Source: Candidatus Woesearchaeota archaeon (GTDB lineage: Archaea > Nanobdellota > Nanobdellia > SCGC-AAA011-G17 > ARS1403). From it: a stretch of DNA of 64,000 nucleotides. A model generated the notes under the pieces. The model did no database searches, had not been told where the DNA came from, and was given only the letters and a program-made list of their open reading frames with translations. Each line of letters begins with the position of its first letter. Positions within the stretch are counted from its first letter, which is position 1. Shown piece by piece: positions 20,699 through 56,377 of the stretch. The stretch is taken from contig JAGVZI010000012.1 in NCBI GenBank assembly GCA_018302705.1, forward strand, positions 332 to 64,331, read 5' to 3'. A program made the position numbers and the translations under genes.

Positions 20699-20793
20699 AG
20701 TCCCGTGGTGTAGCGGTCAAATTGATAAAAAATCAAGACTATGCATAGAGGCCTTTGGAGCCTTTGACGGAGGTTCGAATCCTCCCGGGACTA
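20699..20793 (+). tRNA. tRNA-Gln (anticodon UUG inferred), 95 nt, with an apparent ~22-nt intron at the D-loop/D-stem junction
   Basis: Acceptor AGTCCCG/CGGGACT, T-arm GGAGG-TTCGAAT-CCTCC, anticodon arm GAGGC-CTTTGGA-GCCTT, D-arm GTGT...GCAT split by ATTGATAAAAAATCAAGACTAT. Confidence 0.55.
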
Positions 20794-32630: not shown

Positions 32631-32696
32631 CCAAGTCTTTAAACTCCCAATGAATAATACTCCCAAATTAATGGGACACATGGAGGTGTGTATTTA

Positions 32697-35825: not shown

Positions 35826-36389
35826 CTAGAAATAGGTTCCTTTAGTCTTACCCTTGTGAAGATAGTGCAACAAGATTATAGATAAAGAAAGAACTGCAAT
35901 TATGATAATGCCGGGTAAAAAATATTGAAAATAACCCTCATTTATCTTTTCATCAGCAACATTCCAGTCAGAAAGGTCTATATCCGCTTCAGGATCCCAA
36001 TCCTCAAGTCTTCTAAATAGCAGGTTTACCTTATCTTTCTCACTATCTATATTCAATAAATTAATGCTTAATTCTTTTCCACCTTTCTTATCAAAATCCA
36101 GCCTTAATTCATATTTCTTTGTGAGAAACAGATAGTCAGGAGTATGTAATCCCCTTTCTAAAAAAAGAAATAAATCCAATTCAATGCTATTATCTTTGAT
36201 TTCGTCGATAATTAATGTATTGTTATACCCCCCATATTCAAATAAAATCCTATCGCTCTTCTGCAGCCATAAATCATACCTATCGTTTGCATTGAAGTCT
36301 AATTCAAAAGTTTTCCCTTCATCTGCATAAGCCAAAGGCAGGAGCAGCAGATAAAATAGACAACCAAGGATCATCAGTCTTACATTCAT
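35826..36389 (-). CDS. Exported protein with a C-terminal TM anchor (hypothetical)
   Basis: Signal peptide MNVRLMILGCLFYLLLLPLAYA, C-terminal IIIAVLSLSIILLHYL plus a basic tail. Confidence 0.4.
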   Translation of the reverse strand: MNVRLMILGCLFYLLLLPLAYADEGKTFELDFNANDRYDLWLQKSDRILFEYGGYNNTLIIDEIKDNSIELDLFLFLERGLHTPDYLFLTKKYELRLDFDKKGGKELSINLLNIDSEKDKVNLLFRRLEDWDPEADIDLSDWNVADEKINEGYFQYFLPGIIIIAVLSLSIILLHYLHKGKTKGTYF

Positions 36390-36463: not shown

Positions 36464-38908
36464 TTATTTCCTTTTATTCACATAATAGCCGATTGCTACG
36501 ATGGCAACAATAACTATCAGTGTCCACCATAACCATGCCAAGCTTCTTCCAGCGACTGGTGTAACTTCTCTTTCTTCACGAGTTTCACCAGTTTCTGTAG
36601 TCTCTCTAGCTCGCTCTTCTTCTGCTTTAATCTTTGCAGCTCCTTCCTCTAACTTAGTTACAGTTACATCAGCTACACCATTAGCAACACCATTCAATTG
36701 AACCTTCATATCCTCTGTACCATCAGCATTTACATCAACAGATTTGCTCTGGCCAGCATTTAACTTAACAGTTATTGGGTCTGATGCTATCATTAATGTA
36801 ACGCTATTTGCAGTCACTTCATTGAATGTTATTGTGTGCTTTGTAACTCCATCAAAGCTAAAACTCTTTACTCTTCCCTGGCTTGCCTTGAATGTAGCTT
36901 GTGGAGATGTAGTAAAGTCAACATCAAAGCTTACTACAGCAGCTCCTCCACCTGCTCCCCCACCACCCGCTCCAGCAGATGAAATACTTACACTAAAGTC
37001 ATTTGAACCTGTTGTTTGAGTTTCATATTCATTATCTACAAAGTCAAATACTTTACACTTAACACCATAAGATCCTGTTGTTCCTATATCTAATCCACTA
37101 AAAGTTTTTTTGTTTGTCCCGCTAGTACTGCTCTCCTTATCGTAGATTTTCTCCACTCCGCCTGGTTTTATTAATGTCCATTGATAAGCCTCTACTCCGC
37201 TAGCACCATCGCCTCCAGTACATGTATACTCTATAGTATCAGCAGTTGTTATTCCTCTTGTTGCAGGTACACCCAATGTAGCAGTTGGAACTGTTCCATC
37301 AACCGTAATCAAGAATGGCCCTTCATATGTAGTATAATTATTAGGCAAATTCCCAGACAGTTTATAATCGGCACTGGCATTACCTAAAACTATGTAGAAC
37401 TGGAGAGTATTCCCGTCACTAGCATTAGCATCTATGGAGTATTCATAAGTACTTCTGGTATTTGATTGTTCATTTACCTCAAATACTGTACTTAAATTTG
37501 AAGTATTTAAGTCATTCTCCCCATCAAAGTTTGTTATGTTTAAGAGATATCCATTATTAATATTCATTGCACCAGTTAAATTATAGTAGAAGGTAATAGG
37601 TGTATTATTTCCTGGCTTCGTTGCTCCCAAAACATCAAATCTTATAGTCCAGTTAGTTGCAGATAGATAATCACTGCTTCCATCTGTATCACTACCACCA
37701 TTCCTAATATTTCCTCTAGCATCTTCAATAGTTATATTTGGAATATAAGGCAAGGTATCATTTATTGAAATACTAAATGGTTGGGCCCCAGCATTGGAAT
37801 CATTAATAGTTATTTCATTATTAAATGAATCATTCATAAGTATCATAAATGATAATGTCCTATTTCCACTACCTGTTCCAAAGCTTGTAAAGTTAGTATT
37901 CAGATGAGCAGCTGAAATAGTCCATACATACTTGATAGCATGAGTATAACTAGCATCAGCGGCAATTGAACCTATTGGACCTTGAGTAACAATAGGCCTA
38001 TTAATTCTAGTATTGCTTGTTAATAATAATTCTCCTAATTCTTCATTAGTTCCATTTATGAGGAGCCATGCCATATCCCCATCAACACTGCTGCTTACAT
38101 CGCTCGAATCATTTGCAGGATTCTGCTCATAGAATGTTGCTGTCACAACTAGATTAGATTGGTTGCTCAAAAATGTCATAAAATCATCATGAATAGTTCC
38201 ATTAAATGTCCCATTCTCCCAAGTAGTATTTCCATCTGAAATATTCAACTCGACTAATGTTGGAGCCCTACCATCAATATAAGTTGTAAGAGTTGTAGTA
38301 TTATCAACAGTAGCCGCATCATTAGAGCTAACATTAATAATAAAGTTAGATCTGTCTTCTCTATTACTAATTGCAGTTACATTGAAACGGATAATAATAG
38401 AAGTATTCTCAAGATTTAATGAACCAATAGCACTCGCATTATAACAATTTATTTGTGTAGCGCTTAGATTTAAGCATGTCCAATCTCCTATAGCCCCATT
38501 TACGATAGTAACATTAGAGAAAGTCACATTTTCAGTAGCAGCAACATCGCAATCAGCAACTGTTCCAGTATCTGCCATGCATGCAAAGCCTGAAGATTCA
38601 TTACCCGCTTGAACATCACCAATGCTCATCCATCCGCTAAAGCTATAATTTGCATCCCAAGAAACAGTAATATTAGTTATATTATTTCCAGTACCATATG
38701 TAACAGTCACATTAGCAATCTCGCTATCTCCTCCTTTAGTAGTATTCTCATATTCAATGCCAGCATATTCCCCGCCATATACGCTAATATTAGCGGATCT
38801 CAAAAGATCACTAGGACTATCATCCGAATCAACTATAGCATTACTAACAACCAAACCAATAAGAAGAAGAAAACCAAATAAAATAGACACACCTACTTTT
38901 TTATCCAT
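36464..38908 (-). CDS. Large surface glycoprotein: extremely sequon-rich, Gly-rich linker, Thr/Glu-rich stalk, C-terminal TM helix with basic tail (start at MDKK)
   Basis: More than 50 N-x-S/T sequons (NISVYGG, NVTVTYGTGNNITNITVSW, NGTN...), AGAGGGGAGGGA, ...ETTETGETREEREVTPVAGRSLAWLWWTLIVIVAIVAIGYYVNKRK; SD GGGGTG 8 nt upstream. Confidence 0.7.
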   Translation of the reverse strand: MDKKVGVSILFGFLLLIGLVVSNAIVDSDDSPSDLLRSANISVYGGEYAGIEYENTTKGGDSEIANVTVTYGTGNNITNITVSWDANYSFSGWMSIGDVQAGNESSGFACMADTGTVADCDVAATENVTFSNVTIVNGAIGDWTCLNLSATQINCYNASAIGSLNLENTSIIIRFNVTAISNREDRSNFIINVSSNDAATVDNTTTLTTYIDGRAPTLVELNISDGNTTWENGTFNGTIHDDFMTFLSNQSNLVVTATFYEQNPANDSSDVSSSVDGDMAWLLINGTNEELGELLLTSNTRINRPIVTQGPIGSIAADASYTHAIKYVWTISAAHLNTNFTSFGTGSGNRTLSFMILMNDSFNNEITINDSNAGAQPFSISINDTLPYIPNITIEDARGNIRNGGSDTDGSSDYLSATNWTIRFDVLGATKPGNNTPITFYYNLTGAMNINNGYLLNITNFDGENDLNTSNLSTVFEVNEQSNTRSTYEYSIDANASDGNTLQFYIVLGNASADYKLSGNLPNNYTTYEGPFLITVDGTVPTATLGVPATRGITTADTIEYTCTGGDGASGVEAYQWTLIKPGGVEKIYDKESSTSGTNKKTFSGLDIGTTGSYGVKCKVFDFVDNEYETQTTGSNDFSVSISSAGAGGGGAGGGAAVVSFDVDFTTSPQATFKASQGRVKSFSFDGVTKHTITFNEVTANSVTLMIASDPITVKLNAGQSKSVDVNADGTEDMKVQLNGVANGVADVTVTKLEEGAAKIKAEEERARETTETGETREEREVTPVAGRSLAWLWWTLIVIVAIVAIGYYVNKRK

Positions 38909-39126
38909 TAGATACACACCCCTTTGATTTATTTTTGATAAACTCAATATTATCAACCTCTTTGAATTACCAATATAAAATCATATCCCATATATAAAGC
39001 TTTCGTCAATGGTCGTATTAAGTTAAGTAATAGTAAATGACCCCCCTTATAATATTCTTTTTAGCTAAAAAGATAATTAGATGGGGTTAATAATCGGGTC
39101 TGTAGAAATCTTTATAATCCTTCATT

Positions 39127-39816
39127 TTGAGTTTTATCTACATGGCAATAACCCAAACAATACAGGAATTTGCATTGCAGAGCTCACAAGGAAGTATAGT
39201 TAATCTAATCGTAGGGCTTATATTAACATTAATTTTCACATTTATAACAAGCAGGTTATATGTAAAGTATGGAAGTGCCCTATCCAACCGAGAGAGGTTT
39301 GCAAGAAACTTTGTTATCTTGGGCATGGTTACAACATTAGTCATCTCTGTTGTGAAATCATCATTAGCTCTCTCTCTCGGTCTTGTCGGAGCTCTCTCAA
39401 TTGTAAGATTTCGTGCAGCAATTAAAGATCCGGAAGAAATAGTATATTTATTTTTAGTAATTGGAATAGGATTGGGATTAGGGGCTAATCAATGGATAAT
39501 AACAACAACCGCATTTGTGATAATCGTGGCTGCAATAACTGGGAGATCTTATCTAAAAAGAAACCCAGATATGAGGGGCCTATCTTTGCTAATAACAATA
39601 CCGGCTCCAAGAGAGAATTCATTTTCAAAGATAAGGCAAGTTCTCGCAAGAAACTGTAAATCTGTTAATCTGAAAAGATACGATGAAAATCAAATAGGCC
39701 TAGAAGCGCTTTTTATAATAGATTTTAATAATATTAGAAGCCTTGAGAACATTAAAGATGAACTGAAGTCCTCATTCAGTCAAGTCCAGATTTCATTTCT
39801 TGATAATATTATATAA
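39127..39816 (+). CDS. DUF4956-family membrane protein
   Basis: LIVGLILTLIFTFITSRLY...LGLVGALSIVRFRAAIKDPEEIVYLFLVIGIGLGLG. Confidence 0.6.
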   Translation: MSFIYMAITQTIQEFALQSSQGSIVNLIVGLILTLIFTFITSRLYVKYGSALSNRERFARNFVILGMVTTLVISVVKSSLALSLGLVGALSIVRFRAAIKDPEEIVYLFLVIGIGLGLGANQWIITTTAFVIIVAAITGRSYLKRNPDMRGLSLLITIPAPRENSFSKIRQVLARNCKSVNLKRYDENQIGLEALFIIDFNNIRSLENIKDELKSSFSQVQISFLDNII

Positions 39817-39821
39817 TAATC

Positions 39822-42428
39822 ATGGAACTAAATAAAAAAAAGAAGTTCGATTACTCAGAACCAATAACTAATTACAAGGCACGTATATATATAATAGGCA
39901 TAATTATAATCTCAATAATTATTATGACTTTTTTAGTAGGTATCTATTTTGGGATAATTTATACAATCCAGATAAACGATTTTTATGATAAATTCCCACA
40001 AAAGTTTGATGATATCCCTCACTACTTCCAGGGTAAGTTTTTCAATTCTGAAAAAATGTATATTGATATAAAGTTCTTAGATTACACAAAACTCAAAGAA
40101 AAAAGAGATGAGGCGCTACAAAAAGGCATACTAATCAAATCAGGAGATGATGAAGTTCCAGCAACTATCACTTATAAAGATAAATCGGTTAAAGTAAATC
40201 TTAGATTAAAAGGTGATTGGGTTGTAGATCATCTGACAGGTAACAAATGGTCCTTCAGAATCAATGCAAAAGGAGATAATGCAATTATGGGGATGGAGGA
40301 ATTTTCCTTGCACAGACCAGAAGCAAGACACTATATTTACGAATGGTTGTTCCATAGAGCATTGAAAAAAGAAGGCCTTATCGGATTAAGATATTCATTT
40401 TTGACAGTGATTCTTAATGGGGATAGTCTCGGAACTTACGCATTAGAAGAGCATTTCACGAAACAACTTTTGGAATCAAATAACAGAAGGGAAGCTCCGA
40501 TTATAAGTTTTAATGAAAATAGAATTTGGCAGATTAGAGATGAAATGCCTTTTTTTATCTCTCAAAATAACGAGCTAGAAATAGAAGATGAAACATTTTT
40601 ATCGTCGGAGATAGACTCATATTCAACAAAGAAAGTAAATGAAGATCCAGAATTCCGTAATCAATATTTAATGGCAAAAGACCTGCTAGAATCTTTTAGA
40701 ATAGGGAGATTAGAAGCGAGTGATGCATTTGATTCTGAAAAATATGCAAAATTTCTTGCTTTAACTGATCTGTTCGGAGCATGGCATGGCCAAGTATATA
40801 CAAACATGAAATTTTATTATAATCCAATAACCTCAAAATTAGAACCAATAGGGTTTGATGCATCAACAGGTGAAAAAATATCCGGTCTAATAATTAATCC
40901 ACAAAATCCACTGATTACTGAAAAGTTCATAGAATTATTATTTAAGGATTCAGAATTCACAGAGCAATACATCGAGGAGCTGGAGATATTATCACAAAAA
41001 GAGTATCTAGACGATTTCTTTTCAGAAATTGATAAAGAATTGCAAGATAATCTAAAAATAATTTATAGAGAAACCCCGAGTTTTGATTTTTCAAAAGAGA
41101 TATTCTACAAAAATCAGGAAGTTATCCAAGAAATGTTAAATCCAAAACTTGCAATCTTGCCTTATTTTGAAAAGTATGAAAACAGCATTTTAACATTAAA
41201 AATAGGAAATTTTCATGCTCTGCCAATAGAGATACAGGATATCTTCATCGAAGATAAAAAATTAAAACCCATATCCAGAGAAATATTTGAAGGAAAAAAG
41301 GATGGAGAAATTATCAATTTCAAAAAAATAGAATTTAATATACCTAATGAATATAATCTTGATGTTTCAGAAGAGTCTATCAAAGAAATTCAGATAAATT
41401 ATAAAATTCTGGGAGCTCAAAAAATATTTTCTAGAAAAGTAATCCAGTGGAAGTATCTGGATACAAACTCATTTGAAGAGGACATATTTAGGAAAAAAAG
41501 TAATGCAGAAAATTTTGGTTTCTTGATAATTGATCATGATAAAAAATTAATTTCAGTTAGGCCTGGAACTTGGACTTTAGATAAAGATTTAATTTTACCT
41601 ACAGATTTTACATTTAAAATAAATGAGGGGACAAATTTAGTTGTAATTAATAATGCACGCATTGTATCATATTCACCATTGCGCTTTATATCTATAAAAG
41701 ATAATCCAATATTAATTGACTTCAATAAAGGAAAAGGGGTCTTGGTATTAAATGCTAATAGAGAAACAATTTTAGAGAATGTTATTTTTGATGGTTTGCC
41801 AGATCCTTCAGGAGTCGGTATTGGATTAACGGGGGCAATAACTTTTTATGAATCTCCTGTATTAATAAATAATGTAGCTTTTATTAACGGGAAAGCAGAG
41901 GATTCTCTGAATATAATCCGTTCAAATTTCACTATAAGCTCAACCTTGGTTAAGGGAGCAAGTTCTGATTGTATAGATATAGACTTTAGCAATGGAGTTA
42001 TTAGGGATTCAACATTTGAACAATGTACAAATGATGGAGTAGATTTCTCAGGAAGTAAAGTTAAAATTAACAATATTAAAATAGATAAAGCAGGCGACAA
42101 GGCTATTAGTATTGGGGAGTTGAGTGAAGTAAATGCAGAAGGAATCTCTATCTATAATTCAAATATAGGGATAGCCGTCAAGGATAATTCTAATGTAGAG
42201 ATGAATAACCTACAAGTTTCAAATACAAAATTTGGAGTTTCATTGTATCAAAAGAAACCAGAGTTTGGACCAGCATCTGCAAAAATAACAAGTATCGATA
42301 TGGAAGAAGTTGAAATTCCTTACTTTATCGAGCATGGTTCTCTGCTTTATGTTGATGGAAAAGAGATAAAAGAAAGGATATCAAGAAAAGAATTAGTAGA
42401 ATATAGTTTTGATGGTATAACAACATAG
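39822..42428 (+). CDS. CotH-family (atypical kinase-like) protein with a C-terminal right-handed beta-helix repeat domain
   Basis: N-terminal TM; KWSFRINAKGD...MEEFSLHRPEARHYIYEWLFHRALKKEGLIGLRYSF (CotH core); C-terminal NxxG/DxxxS repeats typical of parallel beta-helices. Confidence 0.65.
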   Translation: MELNKKKKFDYSEPITNYKARIYIIGIIIISIIIMTFLVGIYFGIIYTIQINDFYDKFPQKFDDIPHYFQGKFFNSEKMYIDIKFLDYTKLKEKRDEALQKGILIKSGDDEVPATITYKDKSVKVNLRLKGDWVVDHLTGNKWSFRINAKGDNAIMGMEEFSLHRPEARHYIYEWLFHRALKKEGLIGLRYSFLTVILNGDSLGTYALEEHFTKQLLESNNRREAPIISFNENRIWQIRDEMPFFISQNNELEIEDETFLSSEIDSYSTKKVNEDPEFRNQYLMAKDLLESFRIGRLEASDAFDSEKYAKFLALTDLFGAWHGQVYTNMKFYYNPITSKLEPIGFDASTGEKISGLIINPQNPLITEKFIELLFKDSEFTEQYIEELEILSQKEYLDDFFSEIDKELQDNLKIIYRETPSFDFSKEIFYKNQEVIQEMLNPKLAILPYFEKYENSILTLKIGNFHALPIEIQDIFIEDKKLKPISREIFEGKKDGEIINFKKIEFNIPNEYNLDVSEESIKEIQINYKILGAQKIFSRKVIQWKYLDTNSFEEDIFRKKSNAENFGFLIIDHDKKLISVRPGTWTLDKDLILPTDFTFKINEGTNLVVINNARIVSYSPLRFISIKDNPILIDFNKGKGVLVLNANRETILENVIFDGLPDPSGVGIGLTGAITFYESPVLINNVAFINGKAEDSLNIIRSNFTISSTLVKGASSDCIDIDFSNGVIRDSTFEQCTNDGVDFSGSKVKINNIKIDKAGDKAISIGELSEVNAEGISIYNSNIGIAVKDNSNVEMNNLQVSNTKFGVSLYQKKPEFGPASAKITSIDMEEVEIPYFIEHGSLLYVDGKEIKERISRKELVEYSFDGITT

Positions 42429-42442
42429 GGTAATCATTTAAA

Positions 42443-43147
42443 ATGACAATTCAGATTAATAATATTAGCTTTTTTGGATATGAGAGAAAATTTAGGGTAG
42501 ATGAATTAACAAAAGAAGAAGTAGAATTAATTATAAAGAAAAATGTAGGGCATTTTAATGAAATCTTTCATCAAAGGGTTATAAATAATATTTATTTAGA
42601 TACGCAATCTTTTTCAAATTATACAGATAACCTAGATGGGATTCCTGAGAAAATCAAAATAAGGATCAGGTGGTACGGTAATACTTTCGGCTTGATTAAA
42701 AATCCACATTTAGAAATAAAGATGAGAAATGAATTTTTAGTAAATAAAAGAAAATATCCGCTGAATGATTTTAAAATAGATAATGATTTTTCACTTGATG
42801 ATCTTAAAAAAAATATCATCTCTTCTAAAGTACCTAATCGGATTAAAGAAGAAATAAAATCCTTAAGATTTTCTTTATTTAATACTTACATAAGAAAGTA
42901 TTTCATGTCAGCGCATAATGTGTGTAGGTTGACAATTGATTCAGATATGAGATTTATTTATTTATCTAAAAATACCAATTTATTCTTGAAAAGAGCTAGA
43001 GATGATGCAATCATTGTAGAATTAAAATATAATAAAAATAAGGATAATATTATAAGTATGTTCTCTTCAGAATTCCCATTTCGGATGACTAAGTGCTCAA
43101 AATATGCTATAGGTATTGATAAATTGAATATGAATAATCTATATTAG
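42443..43147 (+). CDS. VTC/CYTH-like domain protein
   Basis: YERKFRVDELTKEEVE...IRIRWYGN...IVELKYNK triphosphate-tunnel-like beta-strand pattern; found in the CotH-VTC-DUF4956 arrangement. Confidence 0.5.
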   Translation: MTIQINNISFFGYERKFRVDELTKEEVELIIKKNVGHFNEIFHQRVINNIYLDTQSFSNYTDNLDGIPEKIKIRIRWYGNTFGLIKNPHLEIKMRNEFLVNKRKYPLNDFKIDNDFSLDDLKKNIISSKVPNRIKEEIKSLRFSLFNTYIRKYFMSAHNVCRLTIDSDMRFIYLSKNTNLFLKRARDDAIIVELKYNKNKDNIISMFSSEFPFRMTKCSKYAIGIDKLNMNNLY

Positions 43148-43218: not shown

Positions 43219-44913
43219 ATGAAGTGGTTTAAAAAATTAATTTTTTTGTATCTTTTTTTTGTTATAGTTAAAATTTTCTTAGTTTATATGATCCCGGCAC
43301 CAAGTGAGTTTAATGATGGCTATATCTATGCAAAGATGGCTAGAAGTTTTTTTAATTCATTTGAGTTTAGTGTACATGGAATCCCGGCAAGGTTATATCC
43401 CCCATTATATCCGGCCATATTATCCATATCCTATATTTTCAAAGATATGCATATAGTATATTTTACTATGAAGATCATAAACTCTATACTCTCATCACTA
43501 ATAATCTTTCCAGCATGGTTAATAGCAAGAGAATTTGTTTCGAGAAGAAAAGCGTTCATTGCAGCAACATTGGTTTCGATTATCCCCTCGAATTTTTCCT
43601 TTGCTCCATTTATAATGGCAGAAAACCTATTCTATCCGCTGTTTCTTTTTACAGTTTACTTTGCTTATAAATATTTAAAAAAGAATTCGCATCTCTATGC
43701 AGCATTGTCAGGGTTTTTCTTAGGATTAACATACCTAACTAAGACAACCACAATTGTACTTGTCATTTCAATTTTTTTATTATCCCTATATAAGATCGCA
43801 AATAAAGATATATGTATAAATAAGTTTTTAATTTTCTGTTCAGCTGCACTTGCTATAATTATTCCTTGGACAATAATAAAAGGATTAATCTTCGGATTTA
43901 CTCCTATTGGGATTTTCGGGGTTTATGTAACTGAAGCAGCTAAATTTACTCTTTCTAATTTTTGGAGCAATTTTGCAATCTGGATAATATTATATTCTGG
44001 ATTTATTATTTTGGCATCTGGGATTATATTCTTCGTTTCAAGTGCTTTATTATTAAAAAATAAACAGACAAAAACTATCTTCTTGATCTTCCTTCTATCC
44101 ACAATCACAATAATCTTAATGGGAGCAAATCATAATGTTGAAGAATCTACTATAAATTCACAATACATTACCGGAAGACCTGTGGGAAGATATATTGATA
44201 CAACTTTATCATTGCTTTTTATCTTGGGTTTTATAGGATTAGATATGTATATAAGAAATAAAGAAAAATTGCATAAATATTTCAAAAAAGTAGCTATGGC
44301 AACCATCCCCATAGTTGCATTCTCTTCATTACTTGTAATGTTCCCGTTGTTTCCTGTGAACAACATGTCATTAACATGGTTAGGACTTTCAAATTTTATA
44401 TTAGATATCTTGATCAATAACAAGGTAGATTTTAATCCAGCATTCTCTTTAATCAATATTATAATTATCGCAGCAATTTTGACTTCAATTATCTTAGTAT
44501 TTTCCTATAATCTTCTTAAGGTTAATTTACAAAAGGTAATTGCTTTTTTTATTCTCTTTTTTATCTTGGTGAATGCAAGTAATTATGCAATAGCTTATTA
44601 CAATTCAAATACTTATTGGTATAAAGGAGAGCAAATGCAATTAGGAATATGGTTCAATGATTTTGATAAGGATAGAATTTCAAATATCCTTATTGACAAG
44701 AGAGATTGTGGTACTCAAATAGATAAACTAAGTCAATATTCTCTTTGCCATTATCCCATCTTTACAATCATAGGATTTTGGTTAAATGATGAAATCAAGA
44801 TACAAGTTCCTGATAATCTTGAAGGATTTGATTACATAATCTCTAGACACAATCTACCATTAGAGATAATAAGGGAAACAGAAAGTGGGATAAAAATATA
44901 TAAGACAAAATAG
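43219..44913 (+). CDS. GT-C-fold integral membrane glycosyltransferase (ArnT/PMT-like, GT39/83-like)
   Basis: More than 10 TM helices; N-terminal DGYIYAKMARSF...ARLYPPLYPAIL loop motif like the DE..Y...A...PPL of GT39/83. Confidence 0.5.
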   Translation: MKWFKKLIFLYLFFVIVKIFLVYMIPAPSEFNDGYIYAKMARSFFNSFEFSVHGIPARLYPPLYPAILSISYIFKDMHIVYFTMKIINSILSSLIIFPAWLIAREFVSRRKAFIAATLVSIIPSNFSFAPFIMAENLFYPLFLFTVYFAYKYLKKNSHLYAALSGFFLGLTYLTKTTTIVLVISIFLLSLYKIANKDICINKFLIFCSAALAIIIPWTIIKGLIFGFTPIGIFGVYVTEAAKFTLSNFWSNFAIWIILYSGFIILASGIIFFVSSALLLKNKQTKTIFLIFLLSTITIILMGANHNVEESTINSQYITGRPVGRYIDTTLSLLFILGFIGLDMYIRNKEKLHKYFKKVAMATIPIVAFSSLLVMFPLFPVNNMSLTWLGLSNFILDILINNKVDFNPAFSLINIIIIAAILTSIILVFSYNLLKVNLQKVIAFFILFFILVNASNYAIAYYNSNTYWYKGEQMQLGIWFNDFDKDRISNILIDKRDCGTQIDKLSQYSLCHYPIFTIIGFWLNDEIKIQVPDNLEGFDYIISRHNLPLEIIRETESGIKIYKTK

Positions 44914-44924
44914 GAGATAGAGAA

Positions 44925-45815
44925 ATGATAAAGCACAAAAGAAGATTAATTATCTTTTTAATATCAGGAATTTTGTTATTTTATATATTGCAAGGGATAA
45001 ATATAACAAATCTTTCTCTCTTGCTTAAAAATGCAAATTATCTTTTCCTTATGTCTGTCATCCCCCTAGTTATAGCCATATTTTTCATAAAGGTTGCAAG
45101 GCTAAATCTTATCCTAAAAATAGTAGGAATAAATATTAGATTCTCGGAACTGTCAAAAATTTTTCTTATAGGAAGTACGTATGGGTTAATTACTCCGGGG
45201 AGGGTAGGTGAGTTCGGTAGAGTGTATTATTTTAATGAAGACAAATCAAAGACTTTTCCATCATTAATAGTAGAAAGATTAGCTGATATTTTTATCCTAG
45301 TAATGCTTTCAAATATTACCCTCTTCCTCCTCTTCAGAGATATATCATTAATATTTATCTCCTTCGTAGCTTCATTATTTCTCTTGATTTTCACATTCAT
45401 ATTGATTAATAAAAAGGTGGCTTATTTTGTCTTGACAATTTTTAAAGTAAGCAAAGATAAACGGAATGAATACATGGAAAACCTGTTAGAAATTCTAAAA
45501 AGAAAACATTTATCTAAAATTCTAATGCTAACACTGTTAAATTTTACAATTTCATTTATAGTAGCATTTGTAATTTTAAAGTCTCTAGATTTTTCTGCCA
45601 ATTATCTTCTTATTTTTTCTCTGCCAATTATCATTTTATTTAGTAATATTCCTATAACAATTTCAGGAACGGGGTTAAGGGAATTTATAACAGTCTATTC
45701 TTTTACACAATTAGGTGCAGTTCCAGAATTGGGATTTTCATTTTCACTGATATTGTTCTTAACAACTATCTTATTGCCAGGATTAATTGGATTTTTCCTT
45801 ATCCTTAGAAAGTAA
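44925..45815 (+). CDS. Flippase-like (UPF0104/LPG-synthase-TM-like) membrane protein
   Basis: 8 TM helices; GSTYGLITPGRVGEFGRVYY motif. Confidence 0.5.
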   Translation: MIKHKRRLIIFLISGILLFYILQGINITNLSLLLKNANYLFLMSVIPLVIAIFFIKVARLNLILKIVGINIRFSELSKIFLIGSTYGLITPGRVGEFGRVYYFNEDKSKTFPSLIVERLADIFILVMLSNITLFLLFRDISLIFISFVASLFLLIFTFILINKKVAYFVLTIFKVSKDKRNEYMENLLEILKRKHLSKILMLTLLNFTISFIVAFVILKSLDFSANYLLIFSLPIIILFSNIPITISGTGLREFITVYSFTQLGAVPELGFSFSLILFLTTILLPGLIGFFLILRK

Positions 45816-47123
45816 TTTGCTTTTTTTAAGAATTTCATCAACAGCGTTATAAGAAGATTTTATTATATAATTTACATTCCTGCTATTGGGATAAATCATG
45901 ACATTCCCAGCAAAATACAATCCCTTAATCGGGCTTTCTATATTAGGCATTATTTTAAGAAAATCAATCGTGTAAAGTGGTGTAGCAAAAGCATTTCTTG
46001 AGATTTTTTTCCAAAGAATGTCCTCTTCTTCGAGCTCTGGAAACATCTCTTTTAAAGAATCCAAAAATAGTCTAATTATCTCATCATCATTTTTATTCCA
46101 CCATTCATTATTTTTTTCTACATATTTTCCAAGATAAACAATATGATCTCCTCCATAGTGTTTCTCATTTTCTAAGTTTGTATGCTCTACCATAACTCCA
46201 AAAGGAACATCTTCAGAGAGTATATTAATCCAGTAAAAATCACTTAATCTTATTTTTAATCCTACAAGTACGCATATCACTGCTTGATAATCAATTTTTT
46301 TTAATCTGTCTTGATAATCTATAGGAAAATCTTTAATTAACTTTAAACTTAGATTTATTGGCAGAGTGTTAATAACATAGTCGCCTTCAATTTTTTTCTT
46401 TCTTCCATTGCTTTCAAATTCAACAATGAATTTCTCACCTATTTTTTTAATGTTTTTAATCTCAGAATTCATATGATACTGAACAGATCTTCTTGAAGCT
46501 TCTTTAATAGAATTTAAAATAGATTGATAGCCCCCTCTAAAGTATCCAAGTATTTCTTTGCCGCCTTTAGATCTTGTAATTGCTCTGGCTTTTATCCTTT
46601 CACAAACAAAAGCAGCAGAAGCCCTTTTCATAGACATTCCGAATTTTATCCTTAATAGATATCTAAAAATTTTTTCATAAGCCTCATCCCCCCATTGATC
46701 TTTCAACCATTCTTCGGCATTTAATTCCTCCAATTTTTCTGTGTCTTTCTGAAAATAAGAAATTTTTAAAGTCATCAGTCCGAACCTTATCCTGTTTAAA
46801 AACTTTAATGGTTTAAACCTTAATAAGTCAAGAGGAGTAGACATCTTATACAATCTCCTGTTGTAAAAAAATCCAACTTTAGACTCGTTCCATTTAAGCT
46901 TGTCATATAAATTCAGCTCTCTCAGCAATTCTAAAAAGATATCATCGGTCGTATATACAATGTGGTAAAATCTTTCTATATCATAGTTTTTTATTTTGTA
47001 ACTTGAAACTAATCCTCCGACAATCGGTGCTTTTTCAATTACTTCTGCATTAATCCCGAGCTTAGATAACCTATATGCTGCTCCAAGTCCTGCAGGTCCT
47101 CCACCAAGTATAATAACTTTCAT
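45783..47123 (-). CDS. FAD/NAD(P)-dependent oxidoreductase (amine oxidase/desaturase-like)
   Basis: MKVIILGGGPAGLGAAYRLSKLGINAEVIEKAPIVGG dinucleotide-binding motif. Confidence 0.7.
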   Translation of the reverse strand: MKVIILGGGPAGLGAAYRLSKLGINAEVIEKAPIVGGLVSSYKIKNYDIERFYHIVYTTDDIFLELLRELNLYDKLKWNESKVGFFYNRRLYKMSTPLDLLRFKPLKFLNRIRFGLMTLKISYFQKDTEKLEELNAEEWLKDQWGDEAYEKIFRYLLRIKFGMSMKRASAAFVCERIKARAITRSKGGKEILGYFRGGYQSILNSIKEASRRSVQYHMNSEIKNIKKIGEKFIVEFESNGRKKKIEGDYVINTLPINLSLKLIKDFPIDYQDRLKKIDYQAVICVLVGLKIRLSDFYWINILSEDVPFGVMVEHTNLENEKHYGGDHIVYLGKYVEKNNEWWNKNDDEIIRLFLDSLKEMFPELEEEDILWKKISRNAFATPLYTIDFLKIMPNIESPIKGLYFAGNVMIYPNSRNVNYIIKSSYNAVDEILKKSKLLSKDKEKSN

Positions 47124-48070
47124 CGCTCTAAAATCTTTTCAATTTCATAGTTTTTTCTAGCATCATAGTAAATCCTTATTTGTATTTCAGCTAAGAAACC
47201 AAACATAATAAATAAAATTCCAATTATTACAAGGAATATGGAAGCTAGCAACAAAGGTCCAATATCTGCCTCACCAAATCTTAAATAATATAATATGGTA
47301 GTAATGGTTTTTATTATACCCAAAACAAGTCCTACTAAGATTAATATCCCCCCTATAAATCCAAAGAAATGCAAAGGTCTTCTTGAATAATCCAGCCAGA
47401 ATTTTACATAAAATAAATCCAAAAATCCTTTAAAAATTCTTTTTGCATTATATTTGCTTTTCCCATGCTTTCTCTCACTGTGCCTTACTTTCACTTCTCC
47501 TATTCTAAATCCGTACTGAGAAATAATTGCAGTTATGTACCTGTGCATATCACCATATAGGTTTAGGTTTTCCACAGCCTCCTTTCTATAGGCCTTCAAA
47601 GAGCACCCAGAATCATGTATATCCTCCTTTATCAAAAATCTTCTAAATGAATTAGCAATCTTTGAAAAAATTCGCTTTTCAAGTGGATCTATTCTATCAA
47701 ATCTCCAGCCACTGACAACATCATAGCCATCTTCGATTTTTTTTAGCAATCCAGGAATATCTTCAGGATGATTTTGCAGATCCCCGTCCATCGTAACAAT
47801 GACATCTCCGCTAGAATACTTAAGTCCTGAAACTGTAGCAGCGCACTCTCCAAAATTTTTCCTATGTTTTATAACCTTTACATGCATATCTCTTTTATAA
47901 ATTTCTTCTAGAATTGAAAAGGAATTATCTTTACTTCCATCATCAGTAAATATGATCTCGTAATCTACACCGATTTTATTCATAACCTTGCTTAATCTAG
48001 TATATAATTCAATGAGGTTTCCTTCTTCATTATATACGGGTATTGCCACTGAAATTTTTTTGAATTTCAT
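47120..48070 (-). CDS. GT2 polyprenol/dolichol-phosphate glycosyltransferase (GtrB/DPM1-like) with C-terminal TM helices
   Basis: ISVAIPVYNEEGNL...FTDDGSKDNS...TMDGDLQ...; two C-terminal TM helices. Confidence 0.8.
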   Translation of the reverse strand: MKFKKISVAIPVYNEEGNLIELYTRLSKVMNKIGVDYEIIFTDDGSKDNSFSILEEIYKRDMHVKVIKHRKNFGECAATVSGLKYSSGDVIVTMDGDLQNHPEDIPGLLKKIEDGYDVVSGWRFDRIDPLEKRIFSKIANSFRRFLIKEDIHDSGCSLKAYRKEAVENLNLYGDMHRYITAIISQYGFRIGEVKVRHSERKHGKSKYNAKRIFKGFLDLFYVKFWLDYSRRPLHFFGFIGGILILVGLVLGIIKTITTILYYLRFGEADIGPLLLASIFLVIIGILFIMFGFLAEIQIRIYYDARKNYEIEKILER

Positions 48071-55190: not shown

Positions 55191-56377
55191 ATGAACTATG
55201 ATATTATTAGATTATTAGATAAATATATGGGGGTACCATTATGTTTTTTGTTTTCTATAATAGATAGCTTATTCCCAAAAGGTAAAAAAAGAGAAATAAA
55301 AAATATCCTAATCATAAGATTTTGGGGGATTGGCAGCATAATACTCTCTTCTCCGACATTAAAGACTATTAGGGAAAATTATCCACAAGCTAAAATTTAT
55401 TTCCTAACAATGAAGAGAAATGAAGGGGTTTATGACGGCAGCAATTTAATGGATGAGATTATCTATTATAATTTCAAAAATTATTTCAATGTTTTTAAAG
55501 ATTTTTTTAAAGTAATTTTCTACATAAGGAAAAAAAAGATTGACCTGGCAATTGATTTAGAGCATTTCTCGAAATTTTCGAGCATAGTCACTTATTTAAG
55601 TGGAGCATGGGAAAGGGCAGGTTTTTTCACAAAGGGGCAACATAGAGAGGGGGTATATACAATTAAGGTTCCATTCAGTGATTATCATCACGTGGTTGAA
55701 AACTTTTTAAATATTCCACTATATATAGGTTTGAAATCAAACTCTGGTAATCTTGTTAAACTTCCTGTGACCGATAAGGAAAAGATTTATATAAATCAAT
55801 TATTAGAAAAGAATAAGGTAGGCAAGAAGGATCTAATAGTGGGGATAAATATCAATTCAAGCGATTTTGCAATTGAAAGAAGATGGCCAAAAGAAAAATA
55901 TGTGGAACTGGCTGATAAAATATTAAAAAAGCATCCGAATGCAAAAATATTTTTTATAGGAGCTAAGTTTGATAAAGAATTTGTGCAATCTACAATAGAT
56001 ATGATTCGGGACCATTCAAAATGAAAGAAGAAAAAAAGAGGGTAATTAATCTGGCTGGAGAAACTAACTTATTAGAGTTGGCAGCGTTTATGGAGAAATG
56101 TGATTTGTTTATCTCCAATGATTCAGGCCCATTACATCTGGCAACAGCAATGGATGTCCGAACAGTATCTTTTTTCGGACCAGAAACCCCTGCATTATAT
56201 GGCCCAAGAGGAAAGAAGCATTCCATTTTATACAAGAAACTGCCCTGTAGCCCATGTATCACGGTTTATAACAATAAGACGGTTCGCTGCCCATATGATT
56301 CAAGGTGCTTAAAAACAATAGAAGTAGATGAAGCATTCAAAATAGTTGAACAAAAATTAAAGCAGATTAAAAAATGA
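55191..56377 (+). pseudogene. GT9 heptosyltransferase-like gene split by a single-base frameshift (ORFs 55029-56024 and 56021-56377)
   Basis: GT9 N-terminus ILIIRFWGIGSIILSSPTL and C-terminus INLAGETNLLELAAF...NDSGPLHLATAM lie in adjacent frames; inserting one A in the A4 run 56017-56020 restores a continuous ...IRDHSKMKEEKKRVINLAGE... Confidence 0.65.

What the first reader, a model, noticed from the sequence alone, without database searches (positions are those of the whole stretch)
39127..43147. CotH-kinase / VTC(CYTH-like) / DUF4956 trio next to the surface glycoprotein, in an archaeal context
Established knowledge: the CotH, VTC-domain and DUF4956 gene triad is a recurrent operon of unknown function, mostly in bacteria. 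CotH proteins are atypical protein kinases that phosphorylate spore-coat or secreted proteins, and VTC-like domains bind or polymerise polyphosphate.

Here the order is DUF4956, then CotH, then VTC. The CotH protein is membrane-anchored and extended by a right-handed beta-helix domain, which is a carbohydrate-binding or carbohydrate-processing fold. The trio sits immediately beside the major glycoprotein gene.

Inference: this may be an extracellular phosphorylation or polyphosphate-related modification system acting on the envelope glycoprotein or its glycan.
Basis: partly seen in the sequence, partly recalled or inferred. Interest (0 to 1): 0.55.

Follow-up and report, generated by a model that had tools for sequence, protein, structure and literature searches.

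The report
Surface-glycan phosphate module: DUF4956, CotH-like enzyme, VTC
A DPANN archaeon carries a three-gene set that is widespread in bacteria and some archaea (a polyphosphate-polymerase-like enzyme, a membrane protein, and an outward-facing kinase-like enzyme fused to a sugar-binding domain); it sits among surface-sugar genes and probably adds or handles phosphate on cell-surface glycans, but its chemistry has never been shown.

Summary
The three genes are real and are a conserved operon. DUF4956 (39142-39816) and VTC (42443-43147) pass the Pfam cut-offs. The 868-aa protein gets no CotH hit when scanned full length. It is still a CotH-fold protein by excised-domain Pfam, profile-to-PDB search, HHalign and Foldseek (5jd9, E 4e-10).

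Its architecture is an N-in TM anchor, a CotH fold, a beta-sandwich and a right-handed beta-helix. At least 552 loci occur in GTDB species genomes, mostly bacterial, some archaeal. Of 53 evaluable loci, 44 carry both partners and 37 have the window's exact gene order.

Three points are, as far as I could find, undescribed:
- VTC keeps all nine Vtc4 triphosphate/Mn ligands, including K458, which marks the active polymerase.
- This CotH subfamily replaces the catalytic Asp with an invariant His-Gly.
- The triad is widespread outside Pel loci.

Linkage to S-layer or surface-protein genes is lineage-specific (window and L001; AglB in L086). The general linkage is to glycan-assembly genes.

NCBI already annotates the genes. 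The triad is published as a Pel-locus accessory set of unknown mechanism. Best explanation: an envelope-spanning phosphoryl-transfer module that modifies a surface glycan. A polyP relay is speculative.

The parts
38957..39141 (.). AT-rich divergent intergenic region between the 830-aa surface-protein gene (minus strand) and the trio. It presumably holds both promoters; a TTTATAAT-like box lies about 25 nt upstream of ATG 39142.
   Evidence: Sequence read. No archaeal promoter tool was available, so this is inference.
39142..39816 (+). DUF4956 membrane protein (224 aa from ATG 39142; the mechanical ORF starts at TTG 39127). Five TM helices (nt 39193-39555) plus a cytoplasmic ACT/PII-like beta-alpha-beta-beta-alpha-beta domain (nt 39580-39801). 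Predicted topology N-out, C-in.
   Evidence: Pfam PF16316 E 2e-16. About 50% identical to bacterial homologs, with the invariant motif VKSSLALSLGLVGALSIVRFRAAIKEPEE. AF2 model pLDDT 74. Weak ACT/PII-like Foldseek hits. Loop charges. Described independently as 'MgtC TM + ACT' for S. intermedius SIR_1592 (PMC12345266).
39822..42428 (+). 868-aa type-II membrane protein: TM anchor, CotH-like kinase fold, beta-sandwich, right-handed beta-helix. NCBI MBS3151245.1, 'CotH kinase family protein'.
39873..39992 (+). N-terminal membrane-anchor helix (aa 18-57), preceded by a Lys/Arg-rich cytoplasmic stub.
   Evidence: AF2 secondary structure. Positive-inside statistics from the 77 of 83 family members that have an N-terminal TM.
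40053..41141 (+). CotH-like atypical-kinase fold (aa ~78-440). Conserved: RLKGD (K130), KWSFR (K142), E174, ALEEH, D304, H322-G323 (nt 40785-40790, at the place of the catalytic Asp), N328, Y332, N334, EPIGFD (D346, nt 40857-40859).
   Evidence: Pfam on the excised domain. Profile versus 5jd9. HHalign. Foldseek. Residue counts.
41154..41441 (+). All-beta linker domain (aa ~445-540), probably an Ig-like sandwich.
   Evidence: AF2 strands 445-539. No family assignment.
41523..42356 (+). Right-handed parallel beta-helix (aa ~568-845) with a conserved acidic/basic ladder on successive coils: D694, D716/D719/D721, D738/D741, D759-K760, E766, K787-D788, K812.
   Evidence: AF2. Foldseek hits to GH87, tailspikes, GH28, pectate lyase, AlgE4 and WceF. 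Weak Pfam Pect-lyase_RHGA_epim/NosD hits. PF13229 in homologs. Conservation across 83 sequences.
42443..43147 (+). Soluble (cytoplasmic) VTC-domain protein, 234 aa, a Vtc4-like triphosphate-tunnel enzyme. S219-K220 (nt 43097-43102) correspond to Vtc4 S457-K458. NCBI MBS3151246.1.
   Evidence: Pfam PF09359. Profile hits Vtc2/3/4 structures. Ligand list from bioRxiv 10.1101/2023.01.27.525886. All equivalents conserved in 36 sequences (13 invariant; the Y359 equivalent is Y in 35, F in 1).
43219..44913 (+). GT-C glycosyltransferase (PMT_2, ArnT/YkcB-like), 71 nt downstream of VTC on the same strand. Probable operon mate.
   Evidence: Pfam PF13231 E 3e-13. Junctions. PMT_2 also lies near the trio in L001, L004, L006 and L018.
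44925..45815 (+). Flippase-like membrane protein (LPG_synthase_TM / TIGR00374), 11 nt after the GT-C gene.
   Evidence: The same family is found near the trio in L001, L002, L007 and L087.
47120..48070 (-). Polyprenol-phosphate sugar synthase-type GT2 with C-terminal TM helices (ArnC/PgfS/AglJ-like). The commonest neighbour family of the trio.
   Evidence: Pfam. NCBIfam best hits ArnC E 3.5e-57, PgfS, AglJ, all below cut-off. Homologs in 21-24 trio loci.
36464..38956 (-). Context, not part of the module: 830-aa predicted surface glycoprotein (37 sequons, C-terminal TM anchor), divergently transcribed from the trio.
   Evidence: A homolog sits next to the trio only in L001.
32688..34955 (+). 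Context: 755-aa S-layer-like protein (PF05124 S_layer_C).
   Evidence: A homolog sits next to the trio only in L001.

Best explanation
The trio is one copy of a widespread, vertically and horizontally spread three-component module. It works across the cytoplasmic membrane as an accessory to surface-glycan assembly.

Shown:
- The three genes are co-oriented and often overlapping, and they are co-inherited across many bacterial phyla and several archaeal lineages.
- They sit inside clusters for Wzx/Wzy-type or polyprenol-phosphate-dependent glycan assembly.
- The VTC protein is soluble and keeps the complete Vtc4 catalytic tunnel.
- DUF4956 is a 5-TM protein with a cytoplasmic ACT-like domain.
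- The CotH-like protein is anchored N-in, so its kinase-like fold and glycan-type beta-helix lie outside the membrane.

Inferred:
- The outward-facing CotH-like domain is an active but atypical phosphotransferase. It keeps the Mg-binding Asn and Asp, and an invariant His stands in for the catalytic Asp. It acts on a glycan held by the beta-helix.
- In this archaeon the glycan is probably the one built by the adjacent GT-C, flippase-like and Dol-P-sugar GT2 genes. It could be the N-glycan of the neighbouring surface glycoproteins.

Most speculative step (about 0.25): the outside of the cell has no ATP. VTC would make polyphosphate from cytoplasmic ATP while docked on a DUF4956 oligomer, and the polymer would pass outward, as in the eukaryotic VTC complex. 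Outside, it would serve as phosphoryl donor or as the attached group. The secreted metallophosphoesterase found in about 25 loci, but not in the window, would trim it.
For: Linkage: 44 of 53 evaluable loci have all three genes and 37 share the same order, with median gaps of +1 and -4 nt. In the window the gaps are 5 and 14 nt.

Neighbours: GT2 in 24 loci, metallophosphoesterase-like protein in 23-25, epimerase in 17, GT4 in 16, plus Wzy, Wzx, PMT_2, DegT and sulfatase-like genes. The window island also holds GT-C, flippase-like, ArnC-like GT2, methyltransferase, B12-radical SAM, deacetylase, epimerase, GT2 and GT9 genes.

VTC: the equivalents of K200, R264, R266, K281, Y359, R361, E426, S457 and K458 are conserved in 36 sequences, eight invariant and the Y359 equivalent Y in 35 and F in 1. 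K458 is the one ligand lost in the inactive Vtc2 and Vtc3.

Topology.

CotH fold and beta-helix. Conserved active-site-like residues and the beta-helix ladder.

The metallophosphoesterase partner has a signal peptide and a C-terminal anchor, so it faces outward.

Genetics in a distant homologous triad: deleting S. intermedius SIR_1592 (DUF4956) or SIR_1594 (CotH) changes Pel polysaccharide levels and cuts aggregation by more than 50% (PMC12345266).

DPANN-lineage relatives place the trio next to surface-protein genes (L001) or AglB (L086).
Against: - There is no biochemical evidence for any prokaryotic VTC-domain protein, DUF4956 protein or secreted CotH.
- Deleting the VTC homolog SIR_1593 gave no phenotype in S. 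intermedius.
- The catalytic Asp of CotH is missing, so the domain could be a pseudoenzyme.
- DUF4956 shows no detectable similarity to the Vtc1/DUF202 channel. Its TM part matches nothing solved, and MgtC-like proteins are not known to be channels.
- No VTC-DUF4956 fusion was found. The single CotH-VTC 'fusion' (P0382) looks like a frameshift artefact.
- The window lacks the metallophosphoesterase partner.
- The substrate is unknown, and the glycan clusters differ between lineages while the beta-helix groove is conserved.
Confidence: 0.5

Rival explanations
1. One reading: the module phosphorylates or polyphosphorylates the S-layer or envelope glycoprotein, or its N-glycan, encoded next door. 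The gene adjacency reflects an enzyme-substrate relation.
For: Divergent arrangement with a sequon-rich 830-aa surface protein, and an S-layer-like gene 4 kb away. The same synteny is kept in L001 at 51-61% protein identity. L086 places the trio directly after an archaeal-type STT3/AglB inside an N-glycosylation-type cluster. Archaea such as this DPANN organism display most of their glycan on surface proteins (general knowledge).
Against: Surface-protein homologs are absent beside the trio in the other 79 loci fetched at that point, including 10 other archaeal loci. STT3 adjacency occurs in only 1 of 87 loci. The module is mostly bacterial and sits in polysaccharide loci. L001 belongs to the same lineage, so the shared synteny may simply be inherited.
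Confidence: 0.2
2. Regulatory protein kinase, as proposed for Pel loci: the CotH-like protein phosphorylates proteins of the glycan-assembly machinery to control output. VTC and DUF4956 sense or buffer phosphate, in an MgtC-like role.
For: Canonical CotH is a Ser kinase (PMC7821199). Whitfield et al. proposed regulation of Pel by phosphorylation (PMC7112168). Deleting SIR_1592 raises Pel and deleting SIR_1594 lowers it, which looks regulatory. DUF4956 has an ACT-like domain, a fold typical of ligand sensing.
Against: The catalytic domain is outside the membrane, where no ATP is available. The catalytic Asp is absent. It is fused to a conserved glycan-type beta-helix. Full conservation of the VTC catalytic tunnel argues for catalysis rather than sensing.
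Confidence: 0.12
3. The beta-helix is the working enzyme: a glycan lyase, hydrolase or epimerase that processes the exported polymer, like PelA, AlgG or WceF. The CotH-like domain is a pseudokinase scaffold or binding module. VTC and DUF4956 make cytoplasmic or membrane-associated polyP for an unrelated purpose.
For: Foldseek matches to GH87, GH28, pectate lyases, AlgE4 epimerase, tailspike depolymerases and WceF. A conserved Asp/Lys ladder typical of beta-helix active sites. Loss of the catalytic Asp in the CotH-like domain. Pel loci pair the triad with a glycoside hydrolase, SIR_1591.
Against: The CotH-like domain keeps many invariant residues at kinase active-site positions (K130, K142, E174, N328, D346, H322), which is unusual for a pseudoenzyme. 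Tight translational coupling with VTC and DUF4956 is not explained. No GH or PL family reaches significance by sequence.
Confidence: 0.15

Closest known systems
CotH / polyP-polymerase-domain / DUF4956 accessory genes of Gram-positive pel loci (Whitfield et al. 2020, PMC7112168; S. intermedius SIR_1592-1594, mBio 2025, PMC12345266)
   Same: The same three protein families are encoded contiguously beside exopolysaccharide genes. The CotH protein is secreted or outward-facing. The DUF4956 protein is an MgtC-like TM domain plus a cytoplasmic ACT domain. The mechanism is undetermined.
   Different: No pelDEADAFG genes and no DUF4832 hydrolase are present here. The CotH protein is a different subfamily: TM-anchored, 868 aa, fused to a beta-helix instead of FN3, with His-Gly in place of the catalytic Asp. 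The host is an archaeon. The gene order is DUF4956-CotH-VTC. The 2025 paper reports not finding this synteny outside the Pel locus. Here it is found in hundreds of non-Pel loci.
Bacillus CotH spore-coat Ser kinase (PDB 5jd9/5jda)
   Same: Same atypical kinase fold (Foldseek E 4e-10; HHalign 95%). The equivalents of the metal-binding Asp (B. subtilis D251, here D346) and the catalytic-loop Asn (N328) are kept.
   Different: About 16% identity. The catalytic Asp (B. subtilis D228) is replaced by Gly/Ala/Ser, preceded by an invariant His. The protein is membrane-anchored and extracytoplasmic rather than in the mother-cell cytoplasm. It carries extra beta-sandwich and beta-helix domains. No Ser-rich coat substrates (CotB, CotG) are nearby.
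Eukaryotic VTC complex (Vtc4/Vtc3/Vtc1), which couples polyP synthesis to membrane translocation
   Same: Same VTC tunnel domain, with all triphosphate/Mn2+ ligands conserved including K458. A dedicated small multi-TM partner protein is always encoded next to it. Conserved basic residues (R50, R89, R91, K95) lie on the cytoplasmic loops of that partner.
   Different: There is no SPX domain. The catalytic domain is not fused to a membrane domain. The partner is a 5-TM MgtC-like protein with an ACT-like domain, not the 3-TM DUF202 fold. No polyP synthesis or transport has been shown for any prokaryotic member.
MgtC/SapB/YhiD family membrane proteins
   Same: Five TM helices followed by a cytoplasmic ACT-like domain. 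JGI labels several DUF4956 proteins 'YhiD'. The mBio 2025 paper calls the TM part an MgtC domain.
   Different: The Pfam MgtC match is not significant (E 0.3-0.6). DUF4956 has its own invariant motif and is obligately paired with VTC.

Membership tests
CotH kinase family (Pfam PF08757) | Sequence matches the family HMM above the gathering score | tested here: met
   The excised aa 61-493 scores 29.7 bits against a cut-off of 23.8, E 6e-7, covering model 2-316 of 322. Caveat: the full-length protein gives no hit at all. Most homologs carry a precomputed PF08757 assignment.
CotH kinase family (Pfam PF08757) | Atypical protein-kinase-like fold as in 5jd9 | tested here: met
   Foldseek top hits 5jd9 and 5jda, E 4e-10, TM 0.66 normalised to the target. 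Profile versus PDB E 5e-6. HHalign 95%.
CotH kinase family (Pfam PF08757) | Catalytic Asp (B. subtilis D228; D228Q is inactive) | tested here: not met
   HMMER and HHalign both place residue 323 at this position. Among 83 family members it is mostly Gly/Ala/Ser (76 of 83) and Asp is not among the five commonest residues. Invariant His322 (79 of 83) precedes it. Canonical CotH paralogs in the same kind of loci keep the Asp ('NSDWPNNN').
CotH kinase family (Pfam PF08757) | Metal-binding Asp (B. subtilis D251) and catalytic-loop Asn | tested here: met
   D346 (71 D, 7 E, 5 N of 83) in EPIGFD aligns to 'EVIPWD' of 5jd9. N328 (73 N, 8 D) aligns to the HN Asn. The residue numbering in 5jd9 was inferred from the 23-residue D228-D251 spacing, because the original structure paper was not available.
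CotH kinase family (Pfam PF08757) | ATP-dependent Ser phosphorylation of protein substrates | not testable with these tools
   Needs biochemistry.
Vtc4-type polyphosphate polymerase (VTC domain, PF09359; triphosphate tunnel metalloenzyme) | VTC-domain HMM above the gathering score, full length | tested here: met
   84.8 bits against a cut-off of 23, model 3-234 of 235. The profile hits Vtc2/Vtc4/Vtc3 structures at E 1e-7 to 3e-4.
Vtc4-type polyphosphate polymerase (VTC domain, PF09359; triphosphate tunnel metalloenzyme) | Triphosphate/Mn2+ ligands K200, R264, R266, K281, Y359, R361, E426, S457 | tested here: met
   Equivalents K16, R74, R76, K93, Y149, R151, E193 and S219 are conserved in 36 sequences, all invariant except Y149 (35 Y, 1 F). 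The E426 equivalence rests on the motif (ELK versus EIK/EVK), not on a significant local alignment.
Vtc4-type polyphosphate polymerase (VTC domain, PF09359; triphosphate tunnel metalloenzyme) | K458, the ligand that distinguishes active Vtc4 from inactive Vtc2/Vtc3 | tested here: met
   K220 in 'SKY' aligns to S457-K458 'SKF' and is invariant in 36 of 36 sequences.
Vtc4-type polyphosphate polymerase (VTC domain, PF09359; triphosphate tunnel metalloenzyme) | Covalent C-terminal 3-TM (DUF202) channel domain and N-terminal SPX domain | tested here: not met
   The protein is 234 aa, a single domain with no TM segment. 149 of the 150 best relatives in the 50%-identity library are short single-domain proteins (123-277 aa, most about 230 aa).
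Vtc4-type polyphosphate polymerase (VTC domain, PF09359; triphosphate tunnel metalloenzyme) | PolyP synthesis from ATP coupled to membrane transit | not testable with these tools
   No published assay of a prokaryotic member was found.
DUF4956 (PF16316) | HMM above the gathering score | tested here: met
   60 bits against a cut-off of 30.6.
MgtC/SapB family (PF02308) | HMM match | tested here: not met
   E 0.33-0.64, about 11 bits against a cut-off of 31.4. Only the architecture (5 TM plus an ACT-like domain) resembles it.
Pel-locus accessory set (CotH + polyP polymerase domain + DUF4956 + DUF4832) | Three families contiguous | tested here: met
Pel-locus accessory set (CotH + polyP polymerase domain + DUF4956 + DUF4832) | Contiguous with pelDEADAFG and a DUF4832 hydrolase | tested here: not met
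   Pfam scans of all neighbours from 32.7 to 57.5 kb show no Pel-specific or DUF4832 family.
Anti-phage defence systems (PADLOC) | Match to any defence-protein model | tested here: not met
   No hit for any of the three proteins.

The most novel reading that the evidence does not exclude
VTC plus DUF4956 is the long-missing prokaryotic counterpart of the eukaryotic VTC machine. In this reading a cytoplasmic Vtc4-like polymerase feeds polyphosphate through an oligomeric DUF4956 pore to the outside. There a CotH-like enzyme uses polyP instead of ATP, with His322 possibly acting as a phospho-enzyme intermediate as in PPK1. It would phosphorylate, or attach polyP to, a glycan held on the conserved acidic/basic groove of the beta-helix. 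This would explain how secreted CotH 'kinases' work without extracellular ATP. It would also give a PPK-independent route to extracellular polyP in bacteria and archaea.
Probability: 0.2. Interest if true: 0.85.

Novelty: new variant of a known kind. Interest (0 to 1): 0.5.

Why it matters
The triad is common, with at least 552 loci among GTDB species genomes for this one CotH subfamily, yet none of its three proteins has a demonstrated activity.

Secreted CotH-family proteins occur in biofilm loci, cellulosomes and fungal pathogens. How a kinase fold could work outside the cell, where there is no ATP, is unresolved.

The origin of PPK-independent extracellular polyP in bacteria is also an open question (PMC13484657).

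This analysis yields concrete, testable statements:
- The prokaryotic VTC proteins keep the full Vtc4 catalytic set, including the residue that separates active from inactive paralogs.
- The partner membrane protein places its ACT-like domain on the cytoplasmic side, where VTC is.
- The 870-aa CotH subfamily swaps the catalytic Asp for an invariant His.

The analysis also shows the module is not tied to Pel or to S-layers. It is a general accessory of surface-glycan assembly and reaches into DPANN and methanogenic archaea. That includes a cultured strain, Methanogenium marinum DSM 15558, and Methanosarcina relatives.

Tried and rejected
- Full-length Pfam and NCBIfam scans of the 868-aa protein gave no CotH hit. 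Excising the domain and using profile and structure methods resolved this.
- Single-sequence PDB searches found nothing useful for CotH, VTC or DUF4956. Profiles worked for CotH and VTC but not DUF4956.
- The original CotH structure paper (Nguyen et al. 2016) is not in the library. The catalytic residues were therefore taken from PMC7821199 and mapped by spacing.
- I looked for Rosetta-stone fusions of VTC with DUF4956 or CotH. The only candidate, P0382 (1110 aa), has an Arg/Gly/Pro-rich junction that replaces the normal CotH C-terminus. I judge it a frameshift read-through of overlapping genes.
- Defence-system hypothesis: no PADLOC hits.
- S-layer linkage as a general rule: rejected.
- STT3/AglB linkage as a general rule: found in only 1 of 87 loci.
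- MgtC membership: not significant.
- DUF4956 Foldseek gave only generic ferredoxin-like ACT/PII/CutA hits for the C-terminal domain and nothing for the membrane part.
- The NJ tree for horizontal-transfer direction is star-like with long branches and no support values. It shows only that the window and L001 do not group with the other Woesearchaeota copies, and I draw no firm conclusion from it.
- Local GC (0.28-0.31 across the trio and glycan island, against about 0.33 for the window) is too weak a signal to call recent transfer.

Full report
OBSERVATION

The window comes from a Candidatus Woesearchaeota (DPANN) MAG. Exact-sequence look-ups return NCBI proteins MBS3151196-MBS3151263. Among them are MBS3151245.1, 'CotH kinase family protein' (the 868-aa ORF), and MBS3151246.1, 'VTC domain-containing protein'. 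An intron-containing tRNA at 20699-20793 fits an archaeal origin.

The three ORFs are where the finding says they are.
- DUF4956 and VTC pass the Pfam gathering scores.
- The DUF4956 gene most likely starts at ATG 39142, giving 224 aa, rather than at TTG 39127.
- The CotH call needed work.
- The excised segment aa 61-493 does pass: 29.7 bits against a cut-off of 23.8, with nearly full model coverage.
- A 41-sequence family profile finds B. cereus CotH (5jd9) at E 5e-6 over chain residues 25-348. HHalign gives 95% probability.
- A high-confidence AlphaFold2 model (pLDDT 88.6) has 5jd9/5jda as its best Foldseek matches, E 4e-10.

ANATOMY OF THE 868-aa PROTEIN

The model shows four parts:
- a long N-terminal helix at aa 18-57, the membrane anchor;
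- the CotH fold at aa ~78-440;
- an all-beta domain at aa ~445-540;
- a right-handed beta-helix at aa ~568-845.

After CotH, the Foldseek hits are glycan-active beta-helix proteins: GH87 alpha-1,3-glucanase, P22 and CBA120 tailspikes, the PfbA adhesin, GH28 polygalacturonases, pectate lyase, the AlgE4 epimerase and WceF.

Among 83 family members, 77 have an N-terminal TM segment. The 20 residues before it carry a mean net charge of +4.5 and those after it +0.8. By the positive-inside rule the protein is N-in, so the CotH-like and beta-helix domains lie outside the membrane.

The beta-helix carries a ladder of residues conserved in at least 88% of the 83 sequences, on successive coils: D694, D716/D719/D721, D738/D741, D759-K760, E766, K787-D788 and K812. 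This looks like a specific groove rather than a spacer. Because it is conserved from Woesearchaeota to Planctomycetota and Bacteroidota, its ligand is probably chemically similar in all of them. That last point is inference.

THE ACTIVE SITE IS NOT CANONICAL

B. subtilis CotH is inactivated by D228Q and by D251A (PMC7821199). In 5jd9 the matching pair, 23 residues apart, is 'nfDGfvHN' and 'ipwDyD'. HMMER and HHalign give the same register for the family:
- N328 aligns to the HN Asn.
- Y332, N334 and E341 align to identical residues.
- D346 (EPIGFD) aligns to the metal-binding Asp.
- The catalytic Asp aligns to residue 323.

Position 323 is Gly, Ala or Ser in 76 of the 83 members, and Asp is not among its five commonest residues. 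The preceding His322 is present in 79 of 83.

Canonical CotH paralogs lie directly after DUF4956 and VTC in some Bacteroidota loci. They give a Pfam CotH hit of E 5e-49 and keep the Asp ('NSDWPNNN...LYDTD'). The His-Gly replacement is therefore a trait of this 870-aa subfamily.

Many other kinase-site residues remain conserved (K130, K142, E174, N328, D346), which argues against a decayed pseudoenzyme. The chemistry may still differ from Ser phosphorylation. I could not superpose coordinates, so whether His322 occupies the catalytic-base position remains open.

VTC AND DUF4956

A profile of 36 trio-linked VTC proteins hits the yeast Vtc2, Vtc4 and Vtc3 tunnel domains at E 1e-7 to 3e-4.

The VTC cryo-EM preprint lists the triphosphate ligands K200, R264, R266, K281, Y359, R361, S457 and K458, with E426 binding Mn2+. 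All are needed for polyP in vivo. K458 is the only one of them that differs in the inactive Vtc2 and Vtc3 (bioRxiv 10.1101/2023.01.27.525886). The equivalents here are K16, R74, R76, K93, Y149, R151, E193, S219 and K220. All are conserved in the 36 sequences (Y149 is F in one).

The protein has no TM segment and no SPX domain. Of its 150 best relatives in the exhaustive 50%-identity library, 149 are short single-domain proteins, most about 230 aa.

DUF4956 is unusually conserved, at about 50% identity between this archaeon and bacteria, with the invariant stretch VKSSLALSLGLVGALSIVRFRAAIKEPEE.
- Its model has five TM helices plus a beta-alpha-beta-beta-alpha-beta domain.
- That domain resembles ACT, PII-like and CutA domains only weakly.
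- Loop charges place the ACT-like domain and the conserved R50, R89, R91 and K95 on the cytoplasmic side.
- The Pfam MgtC match is not significant. However, JGI labels several members 'YhiD', and an independent paper describes the S. intermedius homolog as an MgtC-type TM domain plus ACT.

DISTRIBUTION AND LINKAGE

The 868-aa protein has 936 scored homologs of uniform length (~870 aa) at 38-53% identity, mostly from bacterial phyla.

A scan of GTDB species genomes found at least 552 loci. The bacterial hosts include KSB1, Omnitrophota, Planctomycetota, Gemmatimonadota, Bacteroidota, Chloroflexota, Poribacteria, CPR and Proteobacteria. The archaeal hosts are:
- Methanogenium marinum DSM 15558;
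- a Methanosarcina species and two Methanosarcinales MAGs;
- four other Woesearchaeota MAGs;
- a Nanohalarchaeota MAG.

Of 53 loci with at least 1.5 kb on both sides, 44 hold DUF4956 and VTC within 8 kb. Thirty-seven have the order DUF4956-CotH-VTC, with median gaps of +1 and -4 nt. In the window the gaps are 5, 14, 71 and 11 nt through a GT-C (PMT_2) gene and a flippase-like gene, which suggests a five-gene unit.

Neighbour clustering gives the following families:
- a polyprenol-phosphate-type GT2 in 24 loci, including the window, where it is ArnC/PgfS/AglJ-like;
- a ~360-aa protein in 23-25 loci, often between CotH and VTC; it has a signal peptide and a C-terminal anchor, and one copy passes the Pfam Metallophos cut-off (24 bits against 21.5);
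- an epimerase in 17 loci and GT4 in 16;
- methyltransferase, Wzy, Wzx, PMT_2, DegT and sulfatase-like genes.

The window has no copy of the metallophosphoesterase.

THE S-LAYER QUESTION

The divergent neighbour is an 830-aa protein with 37 sequons (45 per 1000 aa) and a C-terminal TM anchor. The PF05124 S-layer-like protein is 4.2 kb upstream and has 8 sequons.

Homologs of either one sit beside the trio only in L001, a metagenomic relative with 51% CotH identity and the same synteny. The ten other archaeal loci show no adjacent large sequon-rich gene.

A third low-GC relative, L086 (45% identity), puts the trio directly after an archaeal-type STT3/AglB and a type-I phosphodiesterase-family protein. 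That cluster also holds GT2s, B12-radical SAM enzymes, a Wzx flippase and an initiating Glycos_transf_4. STT3 adjacency is unique to that locus.

The conserved association is therefore with glycan assembly. In the window's own lineage, that glycan may well be a protein N-glycan.

WHAT IS ALREADY KNOWN

Whitfield et al. (PMC7112168) described CotH, a 'poly-phosphate polymerase', DUF4956 and DUF4832 as accessory genes contiguous with Gram-positive pel operons. They suggested regulation by phosphorylation.

The 2025 S. intermedius study (PMC12345266) deleted each gene:
- loss of the DUF4956 homolog raised Pel levels;
- loss of the CotH homolog lowered Pel levels;
- both deletions cut aggregation by more than 50% in artificial sputum medium;
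- loss of the VTC homolog had no phenotype.

The authors state that the mechanism is undetermined. They also report that they did not find this synteny outside the Pel locus.

C. perfringens NELoc-2 also carries VTC, a membrane protein and CotH together.

I found no biochemical study of a prokaryotic VTC-domain protein, and essentially nothing on DUF4956. A 2026 preprint reports PPK-independent extracellular polyP of unknown origin in the B. cereus group. Its authors state that B. cereus has no VTC4 homolog (PMC13484657). That work is therefore context, not evidence.

MECHANISM

Shown:
- operon-like coupling of the three genes;
- a split across the membrane, with VTC and the ACT-like domain of DUF4956 inside and the CotH-like and beta-helix domains outside;
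- an intact Vtc4-type catalytic tunnel;
- a glycan-assembly context;
- a frequent extracytoplasmic metallophosphoesterase partner.

Inferred:
- The module performs phosphate chemistry on a surface glycan.
- The attractive but unproven link is that an outward-facing kinase fold has no ATP supply. The one known VTC-type enzyme makes polyP and threads it through a membrane pore. VTC plus DUF4956 could therefore deliver polyP outward as donor or as the attached group. His322 might act as a base or as a phospho-intermediate, as in PPK1.

I put about 0.5 on the general statement and about 0.2-0.25 on the polyP relay. Rivals are given separately.

VERDICT

At the level of annotation and triad membership this is already known. 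The TM-CotH(His)-beta-helix subfamily appears undescribed. So do its breadth outside Pel loci, its presence in archaea, and the full conservation of the Vtc4 catalytic set. I rate it a new variant of a known kind, of moderate interest, with a higher-interest hypothesis attached.

Noticed in passing
window 20699-20793 (+): A 95-nt tRNA found by Rfam (54.7 bits) but missed by ARAGORN. The extra length suggests an archaeal-type intron.
   Followed up: no
L004:10579-11667, L010:7873-8970, L020:12665-13750, L033:3634-4827 and about 20 other loci: A ~360-aa protein with a signal peptide, metallophosphoesterase motifs and a C-terminal TM anchor is a frequent fourth partner of the trio, often between CotH and VTC. 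One copy passes the Pfam Metallophos cut-off and most do not. There is no copy in the window.
   Followed up: partly
L063, L068, L070, L078, L081 (Bacteroidota loci), e.g. L070:6665-8389: A second, canonical CotH (574-586 aa; CHB_HEX_C + Fn3_assoc + CotH, Pfam E 5e-49, catalytic Asp intact) follows DUF4956-VTC directly. The 870-aa His-variant CotH lies about 1.5 kb further on. The two CotH types coexist in one locus.
   Followed up: partly
L004:8001-16643: Tandem duplication inside the module: two 870-aa CotH genes, each followed by a metallophosphoesterase-like gene, with a truncated 79-aa DUF4956 fragment between them and a single VTC gene at the end.
   Followed up: no
window 35826-36389 (-) and 36464-38956 (-); L001:5997-9090: The 187-aa membrane protein and the 830-aa sequon-rich surface protein form a conserved gene pair in the window and L001. 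The 830-aa protein has a Gly/Ala-rich linker (AGAGGGGAGGGAA) and matches no family.
   Followed up: no
window 50522-51964 (-), 56374-57450 (+), 60789-62207 (+); also L004, L022, L034, L048, L086: B12-binding radical SAM and radical SAM/SPASM enzymes recur in the glycan clusters around the trio, in the window and in several unrelated loci. This hints at unusual (C-methylated?) sugars.
   Followed up: no
P0382 (1110 aa, from the 50%-identity library): An apparent CotH-VTC fusion. The junction is an Arg/Gly/Pro-rich stretch that replaces the normal CotH C-terminus, so it is most likely a frameshift read-through of overlapping genes in a high-GC genome.
   Followed up: partly
window 39822-42428: Technical point: hmmscan reports no CotH hit for the full-length protein even at E up to 10. 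The excised domain passes the gathering score. Domain-rich, low-complexity-biased proteins of this family can be missed by routine Pfam annotation.
   Followed up: yes
L030 (contig labelled Ignavibacteriales MAG): In the NJ tree its CotH-family protein nests inside the Methanosarcina/Methanosarcinales clade. This could be a mis-binned contig or a recent transfer.
   Followed up: no
window 44925-45815 (+) and 45783-47123 (-): The flippase-like gene and the convergent FAD amine-oxidase-like gene overlap by 33 nt at their 3' ends.
   Followed up: no
L086:1182-5719: In a 45%-identical low-GC relative the trio (order VTC-DUF4956-CotH) directly follows a type-I phosphodiesterase-family protein and an archaeal-type STT3/AglB. 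This is the only locus of 87 with an oligosaccharyltransferase next to the module.
   Followed up: partly
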